The notes under the pieces are model-generated. The model did no database searches. It was not told where the DNA came from and was given only the letters and a program-made list of their open reading frames with translations. A stretch of DNA of 37,363 nt from a virus (taxonomy: Duplodnaviria; Heunggongvirae; Uroviricota; Caudoviricetes): the IMG/VR virus record IMGVR_UViG_2718218309_000005, positions 1-37,363 of that record, one strand, 5' to 3'. Below, piece after piece: positions 935-37,363 of this stretch; within the stretch, counting starts at the first letter, position 1; every line of letters begins with the position of its first letter. Position numbers and translations under genes: made by a program.

Positions 935-2620
935 GTGAATATAAACGTCGCCGAATTGTTAAATGGGAATTACATTCTGTTATTATTTGTGGTCCTCGCG
1001 CTTGGGCTATGTCTCGGAAAGTTACGACTTGGTTCGATCCAACTGGGTAATTCCATTGGCGTTTTAGTCGTATCGCTGTTATTAGGCCAACAACATTTCA
1101 GCATTAACACCGATGCGCTTAATCTTGGCTTTATGCTGTTTATTTTCTGCGTCGGGGTCGAAGCCGGACCGAACTTTTTTTCCATTTTTTTTCGCGATGG
1201 GAAAAATTACCTAATGTTAGCACTGGTGATGGTTGGCAGTGCGCTGGTGATCGCCTTAGGGTTAGGTAAGCTGTTTGGCTGGGATATTGGCCTGACGGCC
1301 GGTATGTTAGCAGGCTCTATGACGTCGACACCGGTTCTGGTCGGTGCTGGCGATACACTGCGTCATTCCGGCATGGAAAGCAGGCAGCTCTCACTGGCAC
1401 TGGATAATCTGAGCCTCGGGTATGCCTTAACCTATTTAATCGGTCTGGTGAGTTTGATTGTTGGTGCGCGTTACTTGCCGAAATTGCAGCATCAGGACTT
1501 ACAGACCAGCGCCCAGCAAATCGCCCGCGAACGTGGCCTGGACACTGATGCCAACCGTAAGGTTTATTTACCGGTGATCCGCGCCTATCGCGTCGGCCCG
1601 GAGCTGGTGGCCTGGACCGACGGCAAAAATCTGCGTGAACTGGGTATTTATCGACAAACCGGCTGCTACATTGAACGTATTCGACGTAACGGGATTCTGG
1701 CAAATCCAGACGGTGATGCCGTGCTACAAATGGGCGATGAAATAGCGTTGGTAGGCTATCCCGACGCCCATGCCCGACTCGATCCCAGCTTCCGTAACGG
1801 TAAAGAAGTTTTCGATCGTGACCTTCTCGACATGCGTATCGTCACTGAAGAAGTGGTCGTTAAAAACCATAACGCTGTAGGTAAACGTCTCGCACAACTG
1901 AAGTTGACCGATCACGGTTGCTTCCTTAACCGCGTCATTCGTAGCCAGATTGAGATGCCGATAGATGACAACGTCGTGCTTAACAAAGGTGACGTTTTAC
2001 AAGTCAGCGGTGATGCCCGTCGCGTAAAAACCATCGCCGATCGCATCGGCTTTATCTCGATTCACAGCCAGGTCACTGACCTGCTGGCATTTTGCGCCTT
2101 CTTTGTTATTGGGCTGATGATCGGGATGATCACCTTCCAGTTCAGCACATTCAGTTTCGGCATGGGGAACGCTGCCGGGTTGTTATTCGCCGGAATTATG
2201 CTGGGCTTTATGCGTGCTAACCACCCGACCTTCGGTTACATTCCGCAAGGTGCATTAAGCATGGTGAAAGAGTTCGGCTTGATGGTGTTTATGGCAGGCG
2301 TTGGTCTGAGCGCCGGTAGCGGTATTAATAACGGCCTGGGCGCGATTGGCGGTCAGATGTTGATTGCCGGATTAATTGTCAGTCTTGTGCCCGTGGTTAT
2401 CTGTTTCTTGTTCGGTGCTTATGTATTGCGAATGAACCGCGCACTGTTGTTCGGCGCAATGATGGGCGCACGCACCTGCGCGCCGGCAATGGAGATCATC
2501 AGTGATACAGCTCGCAGTAACATCCCTGCGCTGGGCTACGCGGGCACCTACGCAATCGCCAACGTCCTGCTGACGCTGGCAGGGACAATCATCGTCATGG
2601 TATGGCCAGGATTAGGATAA
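935..2620 (+). CDS. ybjL: putative AAE-family transporter YbjL
   Basis: 561-aa polytopic membrane protein with duplicated transporter halves around a central soluble domain; length matches E. coli YbjL. Confidence 0.85.
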
Positions 2621-2732
2621 AACTGAAGTTGCCCTGAAAATGAAATTTTTTTGCACAACCGCAGAACTTTTCCGCAGGGCATCAGTCTTAATTAGTGCCA
2701 CTGCTTTTCTTTGATGTCCCCATTTTGTGGAG

Positions 2733-2776
2733 CCCATCAACCCCGCCATTTCGGTTCAAGGTTGATGGGTTTTTTG
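2733..2776 (+). terminator. rho-independent terminator downstream of ybjL
   Basis: Perfect 10-bp stem cccatcaacc / ggttgatggg followed by tttttt (2770-2775). Confidence 0.6.
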
Positions 2777-2855
2777 TTGCCTGAAATTTATTCTTTTTAA
2801 AATCATGATGTTAGACGCACTGTTTTTTAATGATGGCGACAAATTGGCGGCAGAG

Positions 2856-7821: not shown

Positions 7822-8250
7822 CGTTGGCCCCGCTTCTCTGAATCGCTTTATACCGCCATTCCAGCACTTCGGTCAGCGGCATAACGTCAGTAACGGATGG
7901 CGGCCAGTGAAAAATGGTGGCGATATCAGCCACCAGATCGTCAACCGTCAGGCTGTCGGTAAACCGGCAAGCACCGACTTCTTCAACAAAAAAGTGACAA
8001 CCTCAACCGACATGGCAGTGAGATCTGCCGGGTCCATCTCTGCAATTTCCTGTGCAGTCAGTGCCGGACTGGAGATGCGGGGGATCACGGTCATCATCGC
8101 GTTCACATCCATATCCATAATGGCCTGCAGGCGTGTACCGCGCAGCGCACCGGACTGCGGTTTACGCAGCACAATTTCGGTGATTTCTGTTTTACCTCGC
8201 TTGATGGGGGTATCCAGTTGAATAGTCTTTTCAGTCTGCTTATCGCTCAT
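7814..8250 (-). CDS. gpE+E' programmed -1 frameshift fusion product
   Basis: The -1 frame is open from the slip site (7987) to a TGA at 7814-7816 and overlaps the T start codon; it encodes ...VEEVGACRFTDSLTVDDLVADIATIFHWPP...GANDE. Confidence 0.6.
7948..8250 (-). CDS. E: tail assembly chaperone gpE
   Basis: 100 aa ORF immediately upstream of T; contains the T TTT TTG slippery heptamer near its 3' end. Confidence 0.8.
   Translation of the reverse strand: MSDKQTEKTIQLDTPIKRGKTEITEIVLRKPQSGALRGTRLQAIMDMDVNAMMTVIPRISSPALTAQEIAEMDPADLTAMSVEVVTFLLKKSVLAGLPTA
7987..7993 (-). other. -1 ribosomal frameshift slippery heptamer T TTT TTG
   Basis: E codons ACT TTT TTG (Thr-Phe-Leu) read on the minus strand; same X XXY YYZ class as the P2 E/E' and lambda G/GT sites. 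Confidence 0.65.
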
Positions 8251-25951: not shown

Positions 25952-26956
25952 TTATTCTTCTGAATCATCATAAACATCCATTCCTTCGGTCTGATTTCTA
26001 ATATAAGAAGTCCCCATAGAATTAGCAATCGCAGTCCGAATTAACCCTACATGAGTGAAAAACACCCCTAACCTAGCACGCTTTAACTCAGACTCATCAT
26101 CATAGTCATCTTCATTACTTATAATTCTTCTAACCATTGCCTTATCTTCGTCAATAGCCGAAGGTAGCCCACTCTTTAAAGCGTCAATACACTCACCTAC
26201 AGTTATAATTTTATTTTTAATTAATTCAGAAAGCAAATCATCATAATTTTCATCATCAGATTTATTATCAGGTGGTAATTCACTTGCAGCTATCATTTTC
26301 AGCAATTCTACGTCAAGCATAGTTCCTCTATCTAGTCTGCTTGTCTCAACATACCCCTCACGCTCTGATAACACTCTTTCAAATTCGAAATCAACGACTT
26401 CAAGCAAAGCAGATACTCTATTAATTGCTCGCCTAAGAGGAAGTGGAACACTTTGCTCTTTTTTGTATTGCAGTTTATGAGATGCTGCAGCCCAAATATG
26501 CTGAGAAAGCGTTCGTATTTGCACCTCCACTTTCATATTTTTAAAATCACTAAAGGATGGAACTCTTAGCCATTCTTCTGGAGGTTGTATTACATAATGA
26601 TGAGATTGGTACCCAAATCTATCCTCATCCAGTTCATCAAGTTTATTCTCTTGCTTCAAAATAATGAAATGTTCTTTCAGACAAGATATAACCTTTTCAA
26701 CATCTCGCTTAAATAGCATTATTAATCGGATTCCAACATAATCATCCAAGTCAACTATTGACTCAATCTTTAGAGGTTTTCGGTTATCCTTATTAATAAT
26801 AGAACTTAATGTTTTGACACGGCTTTCAATTGGAACCCCTAAAGACAATTTATTCTCCGACAAAATAACATCAATTTGCTCAACCATAACTCGTCTGAAC
26901 AATTCCGCAACTGAGCCGTAAATTGAATGCTGTTCTTTTAATTCTTCGTCTGTCAT
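25952..26956 (-). CDS. RelA/SpoT-domain nucleotidyltransferase (toxSAS-like; candidate CapRel-type fused toxin-antitoxin)
   Basis: Synthetase-domain signature ..RVKTLSSIINK..RK..IVDLDDYVGIRLI..GYQSHHYVI..VEVQIRTLSQHIWAAASHKLQYK; ~140-aa acidic C-terminal extension; AT-rich; no adjacent small antitoxin ORF. Confidence 0.65.
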   Translation of the reverse strand: MTDEELKEQHSIYGSVAELFRRVMVEQIDVILSENKLSLGVPIESRVKTLSSIINKDNRKPLKIESIVDLDDYVGIRLIMLFKRDVEKVISCLKEHFIILKQENKLDELDEDRFGYQSHHYVIQPPEEWLRVPSFSDFKNMKVEVQIRTLSQHIWAAASHKLQYKKEQSVPLPLRRAINRVSALLEVVDFEFERVLSEREGYVETSRLDRGTMLDVELLKMIAASELPPDNKSDDENYDDLLSELIKNKIITVGECIDALKSGLPSAIDEDKAMVRRIISNEDDYDDESELKRARLGVFFTHVGLIRTAIANSMGTSYIRNQTEGMDVYDDSEE

Positions 26957-27135: not shown

Positions 27136-27161
27136 GCAAAAGCCCGCCAGTTCTGGCGGGC
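27136..27161 (-). terminator. hairpin terminator downstream of the DinI-like gene
   Basis: gcccgccag / ctggcgggc stem followed on the minus strand by a short U-run. Confidence 0.45.
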
Positions 27162-27296
27162 CTTAGCAAAAACGATCCTCAAACGATCATGCGATCTCAT
27201 GCGGCATAGACATGCACTACAGAGCTAACGCCTCGCAAGGGCTCGTTGTTCAACCTTGCTGACGCCAGAAGCAAGTTCAGACGCCAGCAACGTTTC

Positions 27297-27530
27297 TTAA
27301 TGCAGCCAGCTGTCGTCTTCCCACACCTTCTGCATAATTTTCATCACTTGTTTTCTTTCTTCGTCCAGTTGCAGTCCGGTTAGTTCCACACCGTTAGAGC
27401 TACCTTTGCGAATGCGAATTACCGTTTTGGGATACAGGGGGCGCAGATTGCGGTAAAGCTCGGATTCAAGGGCGTCCAGGGTAGACTGGCTAATCTTCTG
27501 CTCTTTATCGATCATTATTTCAATGCGCAT
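27297..27530 (-). CDS. DinI-like protein
   Basis: 77 aa MRIEIMIDK...VWEDDSWLH with clear DinI-family layout; start at the internal Met of the track ORF. Confidence 0.8.
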   Translation of the reverse strand: MRIEIMIDKEQKISQSTLDALESELYRNLRPLYPKTVIRIRKGSSNGVELTGLQLDEERKQVMKIMQKVWEDDSWLH

Positions 27531-27540
27531 AAAAGTCACC

Positions 27541-27729
27541 TCAGCTGATGACATCCATTGAGCGGTTGTATTCGTGGGTTCTGATTTTTGCCATGAGTTC
27601 ATCAGTCAATTCAGAAACCCACTGCAGAGCCAGCCCCTTCTCTTCATCACTACACTCACTAGCCGCTACAAGCTTAAGAAAAAAATCAATGCGCTGGAGC
27701 TTCAAAGACTCCAAAAAATAGTCCTGCAT
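27541..27729 (-). CDS. small acidic protein, candidate SOS-induced antirepressor (Tum/Gfo-like slot)
   Basis: 62 aa from MQDYF..; strong RBS AGGAGG 4-5 nt upstream; LexA box ~45 bp upstream; function inferred from context only. Confidence 0.4.
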   Translation of the reverse strand: MQDYFLESLKLQRIDFFLKLVAASECSDEEKGLALQWVSELTDELMAKIRTHEYNRSMDVIS

Positions 27730-27772
27730 CTTTCCTCCTATGACACCACACGCAATACTGTATGTATAACCA

Positions 27773-27788
27773 CTGTTTATATTTACAG
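27773..27788. promoter_or_regulatory. LexA box (CTGT-N8-ACAG)
   Basis: ctgtttatatttacag with flanking a...ta, close to the consensus TACTGTATATATATACAGTA. Confidence 0.7.
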
Positions 27789-27882
27789 TATATAATAATC
27801 TTACTGATGTAAAACGTTTTTTTACGTTCATCAGCCTGATATGCCTGGTATTATTAAGAGCACGAATTGTTAACCCGCGTAA

Positions 27883-36310: not shown

Positions 36311-37363
36311 ATGGCAGTACGAAAACTCACCACAGGAAAATGGCTTTGCGAATGTTACCCCGCCGGACGTAGTGGACGTCGTGTGCGTAAACAATTCGCC
36401 ACCAAAGGCGAAGCTCTGGCTTTTGAGCGTCACACGATGGAAGAAACCGAAGCAAAACCCTGGCTGGGTGAATCAGTGGATCGTCGAACACTGAAAGACG
36501 TGGTTGAGCTATGGTTCAAACTACATGGTAAATCTCTGACGGCTGGGCAGCATGTCTATGACAAATTGCTGTTGATGGTTGACGCTCTGGGAAATCCCAT
36601 TGCAACCGATCTCACCTCTAAAATGTTTGCCCACTATAGAGATAAACGCCTGACAGGAGAGATCTACTTCAGCGAAAAATGGAAGAAAGGAGCAAGCCCG
36701 GTCACCGTTAACCTGGAGCAAAGCTATCTAAGTAGTGTTTTTAGCGAACTATCCCGCCTGGGCGAATGGTCGTATCCGAACCCACTGGAGAACATGCGAA
36801 AATTCACCATCGCAGAAAAAGAGATGGCATGGCTTACCCATGAACAGATTGTTGAATTGCTGGCTGATTGCAAACGTCAGGACCCAATTCTGGCCCTGGT
36901 AGTCAAGATCTGCTTAAGCACAGGCGCACGCTGGCGAGAAGCAATAAATCTTACCCGTTCACAGGTGACTAAATACCGAATTACCTTTGTCAGAACGAAA
37001 GGGAAGAAAAACAGAAGCATCCCTATCAGTAAAGAGCTTTACGAAGAGATCATGGCGCTTGATGGGTTCAATTTCTTCACAGACTGCTATTTTCAATTTT
37101 TATCCGTGATGGAAAAAACGTCTATCGTGCTCCCTCGCGGTCAACTCACACACGTTCTGCGCCATACGTTTGCGGCGCACTTCATGATGTCGGGTGGAAA
37201 CATTCTGGCCTTACAAAAAATTCTCGGACACCACGATATAAAAATGACGATGCGTTACGCACATCTGGCACCGGATCATCTGGAAACGGCGCTCCGTTTC
37301 AATCCTCTGGCAACGCTGCCAAGTGGCGACAAAGTGGCGGCAGCGGTTGGCATTACCCCGTAA
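36311..37363 (+). CDS. int: tyrosine integrase (P2/186 family)
   Basis: 350 aa with ..HVLRHTFAAHFMMSGG.. and ..MRYAHL.. catalytic region; GGAGGG RBS. Confidence 0.9.
   Translation: MAVRKLTTGKWLCECYPAGRSGRRVRKQFATKGEALAFERHTMEETEAKPWLGESVDRRTLKDVVELWFKLHGKSLTAGQHVYDKLLLMVDALGNPIATDLTSKMFAHYRDKRLTGEIYFSEKWKKGASPVTVNLEQSYLSSVFSELSRLGEWSYPNPLENMRKFTIAEKEMAWLTHEQIVELLADCKRQDPILALVVKICLSTGARWREAINLTRSQVTKYRITFVRTKGKKNRSIPISKELYEEIMALDGFNFFTDCYFQFLSVMEKTSIVLPRGQLTHVLRHTFAAHFMMSGGNILALQKILGHHDIKMTMRYAHLAPDHLETALRFNPLATLPSGDKVAAAVGITP

What the first reader, a model, noticed from the sequence alone, without database searches (positions are those of the whole stretch)
27297..27790. LexA box upstream of a small ORF plus DinI-like gene: candidate SOS-inducible antirepressor operon
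A near-consensus LexA box (27773-27788) lies ~45 bp upstream of a 62-aa ORF with a strong RBS, followed 10 bp later by a DinI-like gene and a terminator hairpin. This is the arrangement of LexA-controlled antirepressor modules (phage 186 tum, Gifsy-type antirepressors). It implies the prophage is SOS-inducible, unlike P2 itself.
Basis: partly seen in the sequence, partly recalled or inferred. Interest (0 to 1): 0.5.

Follow-up and report, generated by a model that had tools for sequence, protein, structure and literature searches.

The report
SOS-controlled tumA–tumB prophage antirepressor operon
This is the well-known DNA-damage switch of 186/Fels-2-type P2-like prophages: a LexA-repressed promoter drives a small antirepressor (TumA) and a DinI-like protein (TumB), so the finding is real and correctly read, but ordinary.

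Summary
On the minus strand there is a LexA box at 27790-27771, then a 62-aa ORF (27729-27541) with an AGGAGG ribosome-binding site. Ten nt later comes a 77-aa DinI-family gene (27530-27297).

The interpretation also holds, but the module is already known. It is the split tumA/tumB form of the phage 186 tum SOS operon, annotated in PSP3 and present in Fels-2. A published in-frame deletion of this ORF in the E. coli HS prophage abolished mitomycin-C induction, as did lexA(Ind-). The knockout primers match the window's start and stop codons exactly. The module occurs in about 1,140 of 5,426 complete E. coli genomes.

The prophage carries a 186-type CI with no autocleavage domain, so it needs an antirepressor.

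- The operator is a double, overlapping LexA box of the colicin E1 type. The second box is at 27775-27756. Both boxes are conserved in 27 distinct promoters.
- A second conserved LexA box lies inside a near-consensus promoter just upstream of int (36258-36286).
- This copy has a private +1 frameshift in replication gene A. SOS derepression may therefore not yield phage.

The parts
27808..27813 (-). -35 hexamer TTTACA of the tum promoter, preceded by a conserved A-tract
   Evidence: Read from the sequence. Column conservation is 0.97 across 27 distinct homologous promoters, against 0.55-0.70 in the flanks. The layout matches the annotated 186 p95 promoter.
27785..27790 (-). -10 hexamer TACTGT, 17-nt spacer; it is also the left arm of LexA box 1. 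The alternative TATACT (27792-27787) would give a 15-nt spacer.
   Evidence: The 186 GenBank record annotates the same TACTGT as the p95 -10 inside its LexA site. Conservation is 0.99. The consensus scanner does not report it because only 3 of 6 positions match.
27771..27790 (-). LexA box 1 (distal): TACTGTAAATATAAACAGTG
   Evidence: It is 3 mismatches from consensus, seen in 0 of 100 shuffles, and is conserved in 41 of 42 homologous loci.
27756..27775 (-). LexA box 2 (proximal): CAGTGGTTATACATACAGTA. It starts 15 nt after box 1, so the 16-mer cores share one base.
   Evidence: The geometry and left arm are the same as the proximal SOS box of ColE1 cea; the Fels-2 version is identical to it. 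Both arms are conserved at 0.96-0.99 in 27 distinct promoters. The offset is a fixed 15 nt in all dual-box loci.
27734..27739 (-). Shine-Dalgarno AGGAGG of tumA, 4 nt before the ATG
   Evidence: Sequence. Conserved in the promoter alignments.
27541..27729 (-). tumA: 62-aa antirepressor, homologous to PSP3 TumA and to the N-terminal half of 186 Tum
   Evidence: PHROG phrog_698 at E 3.6e-38. Cross-hits to the 186 Tum N-terminal families phrog_8554 (2.4e-08) and phrog_1993 (0.0022); 186 Tum residues 1-70 hit phrog_698 at 6.7e-06. It is 98% identical to Fels-2 STM2728. The HS delta-tum primers match its start and stop. AlphaFold2 predicts a two-helix hairpin, pLDDT 91.6.
27297..27530 (-). tumB: 77-aa DinI-like protein, preceded by SD-like GAGGTG at 27542-27537
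   Evidence: Pfam PF06183 at E 6.6e-23. 41% identical to 186 Tum residues 71-145. E. coli DinI structure 1GHH at E 2.7e-06. Identical to the E. coli HS protein.
27252..27294 (-). Strong hairpin directly after tumB, with no U-tract. Followed by the motif GGTTGAACAACGAGCC, also found downstream of 186 orf97.
   Evidence: Fold of -23.5 kcal/mol, z -4.83. 186 has a different-sequence hairpin followed by the same motif.
27138..27164 (-). Canonical intrinsic terminator, the probable end of the SOS operon (same position as 186 t95b)
   Evidence: Fold of -25.1 kcal/mol, z -4.24, followed by UUUUG. It lies in a segment conserved in E. coli HS and Fels-2 downstream of their extra third gene.
33036..33689 (+). 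cI: 186-type immunity repressor, the presumed target of TumA. The true start is probably about 30 codons inside the listed ORF.
   Evidence: PF07022 + PF16452 with no S24 peptidase domain. 186 CI structure 2FJR at E 7.8e-26. 50% identical to E. coli HS CI.
36258..36286 (+). Second SOS-controlled unit (candidate): promoter TTGACA-N17-AAAAAT with LexA box CACTGGTTATACATACAGTA (36262-36281) filling the spacer, 30 nt upstream of the int ATG (36311)
   Evidence: Score scan, sequence, promoter scan 10 of 12 matches. CTG/CAG arms are invariant and the spacer variable in 6 divergent int leaders. The leader occurs in about 1,100 E. coli genomes.

Best explanation
This is the SOS operon of a 186/Fels-2-type P2-like prophage, in its split tumA-tumB form.

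In a lysogen, two LexA dimers occupy two overlapping SOS boxes. These cover the -10 hexamer and the transcription start of a sigma-70 promoter just downstream of replication gene A, and they keep the operon silent. DNA damage activates RecA, LexA cleaves itself, and the promoter fires.

The first product, TumA, is 62 aa and predicted to be a two-helix hairpin. It binds the 186-type CI repressor non-covalently and stops it binding DNA. CI here has no autocleavage domain. The early lytic promoter, which drives apl, cII, fil, B and A, is thereby derepressed.

The second product, TumB, is a DinI homologue and is accessory. It probably damps RecA co-protease activity and so tunes the length of the SOS signal.

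Transcription probably ends at the intrinsic terminator around 27164-27138.

Shown here or in cited experiments:
- the sequence anatomy;
- homology to 186 Tum and PSP3 TumA/TumB;
- the CI type;
- conservation of both boxes;
- the genetic requirement for this ORF and for cleavable LexA in the near-identical E. coli HS prophage.

Inferred:
- physical LexA occupancy of both boxes;
- direct TumA-CI contact with this window's CI, which is only 50% identical to HS CI;
- the role of TumB.
For: Anatomy:
-.

LexA boxes:
-.
- Conserved in 41 of 42 loci; the only exception has a decayed tumA.
- 27 distinct dual-box promoters have box arms conserved at 0.96-0.99, against 0.55 downstream.
- Almost no other boxes occur in 504 kb of related loci.

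Comparison with 186:
- 186 p95 has the same layout of -35, TACTGT -10 within a LexA site, then tum.

Homology:
- PHROG cross-hits link TumA to the 186 Tum N-terminus.
- TumB is 41% identical to the Tum C-terminus and belongs to the DinI Pfam family.
- PSP3 GenBank annotates tumA ('similar to 5' end 186 tum; UV induction of prophage') and tumB.
- Fels-2 STM2728 and STM2726.1 are 98% identical to the window genes.

Literature:
- tum is split by a stop codon in Fels-2 and PSP3, and the upstream gene is the antirepressor (PMC3121763).
- 186 Tum sequesters CI after LexA derepression of p95 (PMC7708051).
- In E. coli HS, delta-tum and lexA(Ind-) abolish MMC induction (PMC11195241). The primers match the window's ATG and TGA.
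- The HS promoter is identical from -35 through box 2, HS TumA differs by 1 aa, and HS TumB is identical.

Repressor:
- CI is 186-type with no S24 domain.

Double box:
- The ColE1 double SOS box has the same geometry.
- Colicin double boxes bind two LexA dimers (PMC2994835).

tumB:
- It is missing from about 13 of 34 loci, while tumA is always present.
Against: - Pairwise BLASTP finds no alignment between TumA and 186 Tum. The homology rests on profile searches and conserved position.
- TumA matches no Pfam or NCBIfam model and no solved structure.
- The window's CI is only 50% identical to the HS CI and 31% identical to 186 CI. Recognition of this CI by TumA is therefore extrapolated.
- Box 2 lacks the canonical CTG in its left arm (GTGG) and would be weak on its own.
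- The -10 hexamer matches consensus at only 3 of 6 positions, and the generic scanner does not find it.
- Gene A is frameshifted in this copy, so the downstream outcome of induction may be abortive.
Confidence: 0.9

Rival explanations
1. The DinI-like protein TumB, alone or together with TumA, is the real inducer. On this view the 62-aa ORF is only a leader or coupling peptide.
For: In 186 the two parts are fused into one 146-aa Tum, so activity could in principle need both. The HS deletion fuses the tumA start and stop codons just upstream of the tumB RBS, so reduced tumB translation cannot be strictly excluded.
Against: tumB is absent from about 13 of 34 homologous loci and from ESSI-2-type phages, yet these keep the LexA box and tumA. 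For PSP3, the upstream gene is reported to carry the antirepressor activity (PMC3121763). The 186 record annotates the DinI-only short forms as 'modulates SOS induction', not as inducers.
Confidence: 0.05
2. In this particular copy the module is a remnant in a defective prophage. It still answers to LexA, but the result is only CI inactivation and possibly toxic early gene expression or SOS modulation, not phage production.
For: A +1 A insertion at about 29199-29200 splits gene A into 372-aa and 445-aa ORFs. None of 1,217 E. coli genomes carrying this segment shares the insertion; the best match is 98.8%.
Against: The insertion may be a sequencing or assembly error, since it merely doubles a single A. 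The rest of the prophage looks intact and is 95-97.5% identical to the functional HS phage. This rival concerns the consequence of induction, not what the tum operon is.
Confidence: 0.3
3. The LexA-like sequence is a chance AT-rich palindrome and the operon is expressed constitutively or under CI control.
For: CTGT-N8-ACAG alone is expected 0.44 times per window by chance.
Against: No shuffle produced a 20-mer this close to consensus. The box arms are near-invariant while the spacers and flanks drift across 27 distinct promoters. The one locus that lost the box also lost tumA. lexA(Ind-) blocks induction in HS.
Confidence: 0.01

Closest known systems
Phage 186 SOS operon (p95-tum-orf97)
   Same: Same position after gene A. 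Same promoter design, with the -10 TACTGT inside a LexA site. Homologous N-terminal antirepressor part and DinI-like C-terminal part. Same 186-type CI target without autocleavage.
   Different: In 186, tum is one fused 146-aa ORF with internal starts; here a TGA and 10 nt split it into two genes. 186 has one LexA box; this operon has two overlapping boxes. The 186 third gene, orf97, has no counterpart here.
PSP3 tumA/tumB and Fels-2 STM2728/STM2726.1
   Same: Same split two-gene arrangement. The Fels-2 proteins are 98% identical to the window's, and Fels-2 has the same double box.
   Different: PSP3 TumA is only about 14% identical in the alignment, and PSP3 has a single box. Fels-2 and E. coli HS carry an extra lipoprotein-like gene after tumB that is absent here.
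E. coli HS P2-like prophage tum (Phollow study, PMC11195241)
   Same: Same chromosomal site (rcdA/rybB/ybjL). Promoter and operator identical. TumA differs by 1 aa and TumB is identical. Shown experimentally to be required for SOS induction.
   Different: The immunity region differs: CI is 50% identical. The cargo genes differ. The window copy has a frameshift in gene A.
Double overlapping SOS boxes of colicin operons (ColE1 cea)
   Same: Two 20-mers offset by 15 nt. The proximal box begins CAGTGG...ACAGTA, and the Fels-2 version is identical to the ColE1 proximal box. In colicins this design binds two LexA dimers and suppresses basal expression of a lethal function (PMC2994835).
   Different: The downstream genes are unrelated. 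Here box 1 overlaps the -10 hexamer, whereas in ColE1 the boxes lie just downstream of it. Cooperative LexA binding is not tested here.
Gifsy/Fels-1 LexA-controlled antirepressors (GfoA, GftA, FsoA)
   Same: Same logic: a LexA-repressed small antirepressor co-transcribed with a dinI homologue, acting on a non-cleavable repressor (PMC3121763).
   Different: The gene order is reversed, with dinI first. The repressor family differs (Gifsy GfoR/GtgR type). Sequence relatedness to TumA was not tested here.

Membership tests
186 Tum / PSP3 TumA-TumB SOS antirepressor operon | Located immediately downstream of replication gene A, in the same orientation, at the right end of the early region | tested here: met
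   Gene A (PF05840) ends at 27883 and tumA starts at 27729. The order is the same in 186, Fels-2, PSP3 and HS.
186 Tum / PSP3 TumA-TumB SOS antirepressor operon | Sigma-70 promoter overlapped by a LexA operator | tested here: met
   Met at the sequence level. LexA binding itself is not testable with these tools. lexA(Ind-) blocks induction of the identical HS promoter.
186 Tum / PSP3 TumA-TumB SOS antirepressor operon | Product homologous to the N-terminal (antirepressor) part of 186 Tum | tested here: met
   Reciprocal PHROG profile hits: window TumA to phrog_8554 at 2.4e-08 and phrog_1993 at 0.0022; 186 Tum residues 1-70 to phrog_698 at 6.7e-06. Pairwise BLASTP is negative. Cys26 and Ala34 are invariant in the alignment.
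186 Tum / PSP3 TumA-TumB SOS antirepressor operon | DinI-like domain or gene directly following | tested here: met
   PF06183 at E 6.6e-23. 41% identical to Tum residues 71-145.
186 Tum / PSP3 TumA-TumB SOS antirepressor operon | Cognate 186-type CI repressor lacking a LexA-like autocleavage domain | tested here: met
   PF07022 + PF16452 only. PDB 2FJR at E 7.8e-26.
186 Tum / PSP3 TumA-TumB SOS antirepressor operon | Protein binds CI and prevents operator binding | not testable with these tools
   Shown biochemically for 186 Tum (Shearwin 1998, cited in PMC3121763 and PMC7708051) and genetically for the HS orthologue. Not shown for this CI allele.
DinI family | Match to the DinI profile over its full length | tested here: met
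   PF06183 covers profile positions 1-63 of 63. 1GHH at E 2.7e-06. The score is below the NCBIfam equivalog cutoff (42.7 vs 111 bits), so it is a paralogue, not host DinI.
DinI family | Binds RecA filaments and modulates co-protease activity | not testable with these tools
   Inferred from family membership only.
Colicin-type double overlapping SOS box | Two LexA 20-mers offset by 15 nt, so the 16-mer cores share one base, both under selection | tested here: met
   The ColE1 reference sequence was verified in NC_001371, upstream of the cea ORF.
Colicin-type double overlapping SOS box | Simultaneous or cooperative binding of two LexA dimers | not testable with these tools
   Known for colicins (PMC2994835). 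Not tested for tum promoters.
Gifsy-type antirepressors (GfoA/GftA) | Sequence homology to GfoA/GftA and the gene order dinI-antirepressor | not tested
   No Gifsy sequence was compared. The literature says the order is reversed relative to tum. This is therefore an analogue and is not claimed as a member.

The most novel reading that the evidence does not exclude
SOS control of this prophage lineage may be two-pronged and threshold-tuned, in ways that have not been described.

1. The tum promoter carries a colicin-style double LexA operator. This would give very low basal expression and late, high-damage induction, unlike the single box of 186 and PSP3.
2. The integrase has its own LexA-repressed promoter. 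Int would then be supplied on induction even though defence cargo has been inserted between cI and int.
3. TumA is nearly invariant (71-100% identity) while the CI it serves is highly divergent (32-64%). CI is more conserved in its DNA-binding N-terminal domain than in its C-terminal domain. This suggests TumA targets a conserved N-terminal surface and could cross-induce heteroimmune P2-like prophages.
Probability: 0.4. Interest if true: 0.35.

Novelty: already known. Interest (0 to 1): 0.15.

Why it matters
The main value is in annotation. RefSeq labels this 62-aa gene 'hypothetical protein' in more than 1,100 complete E. coli genomes, and Pfam and NCBIfam have no model for it. Yet it is the switch that makes this large class of P2-like prophages inducible by DNA-damaging antibiotics. 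Recognising it predicts which P2-like prophages respond to SOS, unlike P2 itself. These prophages also carry anti-phage defence cargo.

The double LexA operator and the LexA box in front of int are small, testable refinements to how tightly and how completely induction is wired to LexA.

Tried and rejected
- BLASTP of TumA against full-length 186 Tum gave no alignment. Homology had to come from PHROG profiles.
- Pfam and NCBIfam have no model for TumA, and there is no PDB sequence relative.
- Foldseek of the AlphaFold2 hairpin against the PDB returned only generic helical hairpins, none at E <= 0.001.
The single protein was used instead.
- The terminator-like hairpin at the tumA/tumB junction (27552-27535) was considered as an attenuator or a structure that sequesters the RBS. 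It was rejected: z is only -1.0 with 31 of 200 shuffles folding as well, and the junction sequence is not conserved in relatives.
- Rfam found nothing in or near the operon.
- Bunny et al. 2002 and the Christie & Calendar P2 review are not held in the library. The Fels-2 statements are therefore taken second-hand from Lemire et al. 2011.
- My heterology-index-like score uses 23 E. coli LexA sites recalled from memory, and it reproduces published HI values only roughly:
  - recA: 4.7 vs 4.31;
  - umuDC: 1.0 vs 2.77;
  - ColE1: 4.4 and 11.8 vs 7.48 and 11.06.
  It is used only to rank sites, not as a measure of affinity.
- Literature searches for a LexA-controlled int in P2-like phages found nothing.

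Full report
**1. What is in the sequence**

The feature lies on the minus strand. Reading 5' to 3':

| Element | Coordinates | Sequence / note |
|---|---|---|
| End of replication gene A | 27883 | preceded the promoter; an A-tract follows |
| -35 hexamer | 27813-27808 | TTTACA, followed by a 17-nt spacer |
| LexA box 1 | 27790-27771 | TACTGTAAATATAAACAGTG |
| LexA box 2 | 27775-27756 | CAGTGGTTATACATACAGTA, overlapping box 1 |
| Shine-Dalgarno | 27739-27734 | AGGAGG |
| 62-aa ORF | 27729-27541 | ATG to TGA |
| Gap | 10 nt | contains GAGGTG |
| 77-aa ORF | 27530-27297 | coordinates and translations verified |

- CTGT-N8-ACAG occurs only here in the window. That pattern alone is weak evidence: 0.44 matches are expected by chance.
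- The 20-mer is within 3 mismatches of the LexA consensus, and no shuffle reached that.
- The 77-aa protein is a DinI-family member: PF06183 at E 6.6e-23, and E. coli DinI 1GHH at E 2.7e-06.
- The 62-aa protein has no Pfam or NCBIfam model.

**2. Context**

The window is a P2-like prophage with a 186-type regulatory region.

- The cI product has the 186 CI N- and C-terminal Pfam domains (PF07022, PF16452) and no S24 peptidase domain. It matches the 186 CI crystal structure 2FJR at E 7.8e-26.
- cII (PF06892), fil (PF10893) and DUF5347 genes lie on the opposite strand.
- The host flank has ybjL and the RybB sRNA at 2700-2778.
- The E. coli HS P2-like prophage sits at the same rcdA/rybB/ybjL site and is 95-97.5% identical over most of its length.

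**3. Identity of the module**

- Phage 186: GenBank annotates p95 (-35; -10 TACTGT inside a LexA site), the 146-aa tum with internal starts, a partial terminator, orf97 and a final terminator, all directly after gene A.
- TumB is 41% identical to 186 Tum residues 71-145.
- BLASTP does not align TumA with the Tum N-terminus. PHROG profiles link them in both directions:
  - Window TumA hits its own family phrog_698 (3.6e-38), and also phrog_8554 (2.4e-08) and phrog_1993 (0.0022).
  - 186 Tum residues 1-70 hit phrog_1993 (2e-23), phrog_8554 (3.3e-12) and phrog_698 (6.7e-06), over the same columns.
- A multiple alignment shows a shared helix-turn-helix-like pattern with invariant Cys26 and Ala34.
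- PSP3's GenBank record annotates exactly this split arrangement: tumA ('similar to 5' end 186 tum; UV induction of prophage') and tumB.
- Fels-2 STM2728 and STM2726.1 are 98% identical to the window genes.
- Lemire et al. 2011 state that Fels-2 and PSP3 have tum split by a stop codon. They add that in PSP3 the upstream gene is the antirepressor and the downstream gene the DinI homologue (PMC3121763).

**4. Direct experimental evidence already exists**

- The Phollow study made an in-frame deletion that fuses the start and stop codons of 'tum' in the E. coli HS P2-like prophage. It also made a lexA(Ind-) host. Both abolish mitomycin-C-induced lysis and virion foci (PMC11195241).
- The deletion primers (…GTGGTGTCATAGGAGGAAAGATG | TGAGGTGACTTTTATGCGCATTG…) match the window perfectly at 27749-27727 and 27543-27521. 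These are the ATG and TGA of the 62-aa ORF.
- In HS the promoter is identical from -35 through box 2. HS TumA differs by one residue (T51S) and HS TumB is identical.

**5.

I collected 33 genomic loci from about 15 enterobacterial genera plus 9 phage loci.

- A LexA box precedes tumA in 41 of 42 loci. The exception, Siccibacter L043, has a truncated 20-codon tumA and a decayed box.
- Twenty-seven loci, all with distinct promoter sequences, have two boxes at a fixed 15-nt offset.
- Ten genomic loci have a single box, including Pantoea, Erwinia and Tatumella. 186, PSP3 and the ESSI-2-type phages also have one box.

Column conservation in the dual-box set:

| Region | Conservation |
|---|---|
| -35 hexamer | 0.97 |
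| Box arms | 0.96-0.99 |
| Promoter spacer | 0.66 |
| Downstream of the boxes | 0.55 |

- A position-weight scan of all 504 kb of these loci found boxes essentially only at the tum promoter.
- The double box has the geometry of colicin operators. The ColE1 sequence TGCTGTATATAAAACCAGTGGTTATATGTACAGTA was verified in NC_001371, directly upstream of the cea ORF.
- Its proximal box is identical to Fels-2 box 2 and differs at two positions from the window's.
- Colicin double boxes bind two LexA dimers and suppress basal expression of a lethal function (PMC2994835).
- By inference, the double box keeps this lethal switch quieter than the single box of 186.

**6. TumB is accessory; TumA is the constant part**

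- tblastn finds tumB in only about 21 of 34 loci. tumA is present in all of them except the decayed one.
- ESSI-2-type phages have a LexA box and tumA but no dinI-like gene.
- TumA is predicted with high confidence to be a two-helix hairpin (pLDDT 91.6). Fold search was uninformative.

**7. TumA compared with its presumed target**

- TumA is 71-100% identical across loci, while the linked CI is only 32-64% identical to the window's.
- Phages with 100% identical TumA carry CIs that are 41-54% identical.
- Within CI, the N-terminal DNA-binding domain is more conserved than the C-terminal domain: mean pairwise identity 0.57 versus 0.38.
- This is compatible with TumA contacting a conserved N-terminal surface and with cross-induction between immunity types. 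That is an inference only.

**8. The 3' end**

- A canonical terminator follows at about 27164-27138.
- Fels-2 and HS have an extra lipoprotein-like gene between tumB and the conserved terminator segment. It is absent here.
- 186 has a hairpin of different sequence, followed by the same GGTTGAACAACGAGCC motif, after orf97.

**9. Caveat for this copy**

- Gene A is split into two ORFs by one extra A at about 29199-29200, relative to phage vB_EcoM-813R9.
- None of 1,217 E. coli genomes with this segment shares the insertion.
- It is either a private inactivating mutation or a sequencing error. If real, SOS derepression would not give productive replication.

**10. Verdict**

The module is already known and is experimentally validated in a near-identical prophage.
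- It occurs in 1,143 of 5,426 complete E. coli genomes, usually annotated 'hypothetical protein'.
- Interest is low. The double LexA operator and the LexA-boxed int promoter (see Noticed in passing) are modest, apparently unreported refinements.

Noticed in passing
window 36258-36313 (+): A second strong LexA box, CACTGGTTATACATACAGTA (36262-36281), matches tum box 2 at 19 of 20 positions. It fills the 17-nt spacer of a near-consensus promoter, TTGACA-N17-AAAAAT, 30 nt upstream of the integrase ATG. In six divergent int leaders (E. coli BL21, 1EC187, phages 813R9, 4LV2017 and ESSI2_ev129) the CTG/CAG arms are invariant while the spacer varies. The leader occurs in about 1,100 E. coli genomes. 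Loci with a different int type lack the box. This is a candidate LexA-repressed int promoter. I found no report of one.
   Followed up: partly
window 29199-29200 (gene A, minus strand): One extra A (cttAAtcg versus cttAtcg in relatives) frameshifts replication gene A into 372-aa and 445-aa ORFs. The insertion is not shared by any of 1,217 E. coli genomes that carry this segment. It is either a private mutation or a sequencing error.
   Followed up: yes
window 25952-26956 (-): A 334-aa RelA/SpoT-domain protein (PF04607 at E 7.5e-20; PADLOC candidate PDC-S33 at E 1.8e-16) occupies the variable cargo slot between tumB and the portal gene. HS, Fels-2 and other relatives carry unrelated genes there. 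It may receive read-through from the SOS operon, as 186 orf97 does.
   Followed up: partly
window 33718-36232 (+): Three genes are inserted between cI and int: an unknown 354-aa ORF with no Pfam, PHROG, PADLOC or NCBIfam hit, plus PADLOC candidate defence pair PDC-M11A (E 9.6e-134) and PDC-M11B (E 2.2e-49). In 186 and many relatives int directly follows cI.
   Followed up: partly
window 2700-2778 (+) and 935-2620 (+): The RybB sRNA (Rfam RF00110, 105 bits) and ybjL mark the host flank. The prophage occupies the same rcdA/rybB/ybjL site as the E. coli HS P2-like prophage. The int gene runs off the window end at 37363.
   Followed up: partly
window 27224-27294 (-); L001 4345-4414: The hairpin after tumB is followed by GGTTGAACAACGAGCC..GCGAGGCGTTAGC. 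Phage 186 has a hairpin of different sequence followed by the same motif downstream of orf97, and it is unannotated there. It could be a conserved boundary or RNA element flanking the cargo slot. Its function is unknown.
   Followed up: partly
loci L013-L045, compared with window 33036-33689 and 27541-27729: TumA is far more conserved (71-100% identity) than the linked CI (32-64%). CI's N-terminal domain is more conserved than its C-terminal domain (0.57 versus 0.38 mean pairwise identity). Phages with identical TumA carry heteroimmune CIs.
   Followed up: partly
locus L043 (Siccibacter turicensis), about 7890-8180: This is the only homologous locus without a recognisable LexA box. It also has tumA truncated to 20 codons, so operator and gene appear to have decayed together.
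   Followed up: no
window 27541-27729 (-): tumA is annotated 'hypothetical protein' in RefSeq and in most phage records; one Klebsiella phage record calls it 'levan regulatory domain protein'. No Pfam or NCBIfam model exists, despite published genetics. This is an annotation gap affecting more than 1,100 E. coli genomes.
   Followed up: yes
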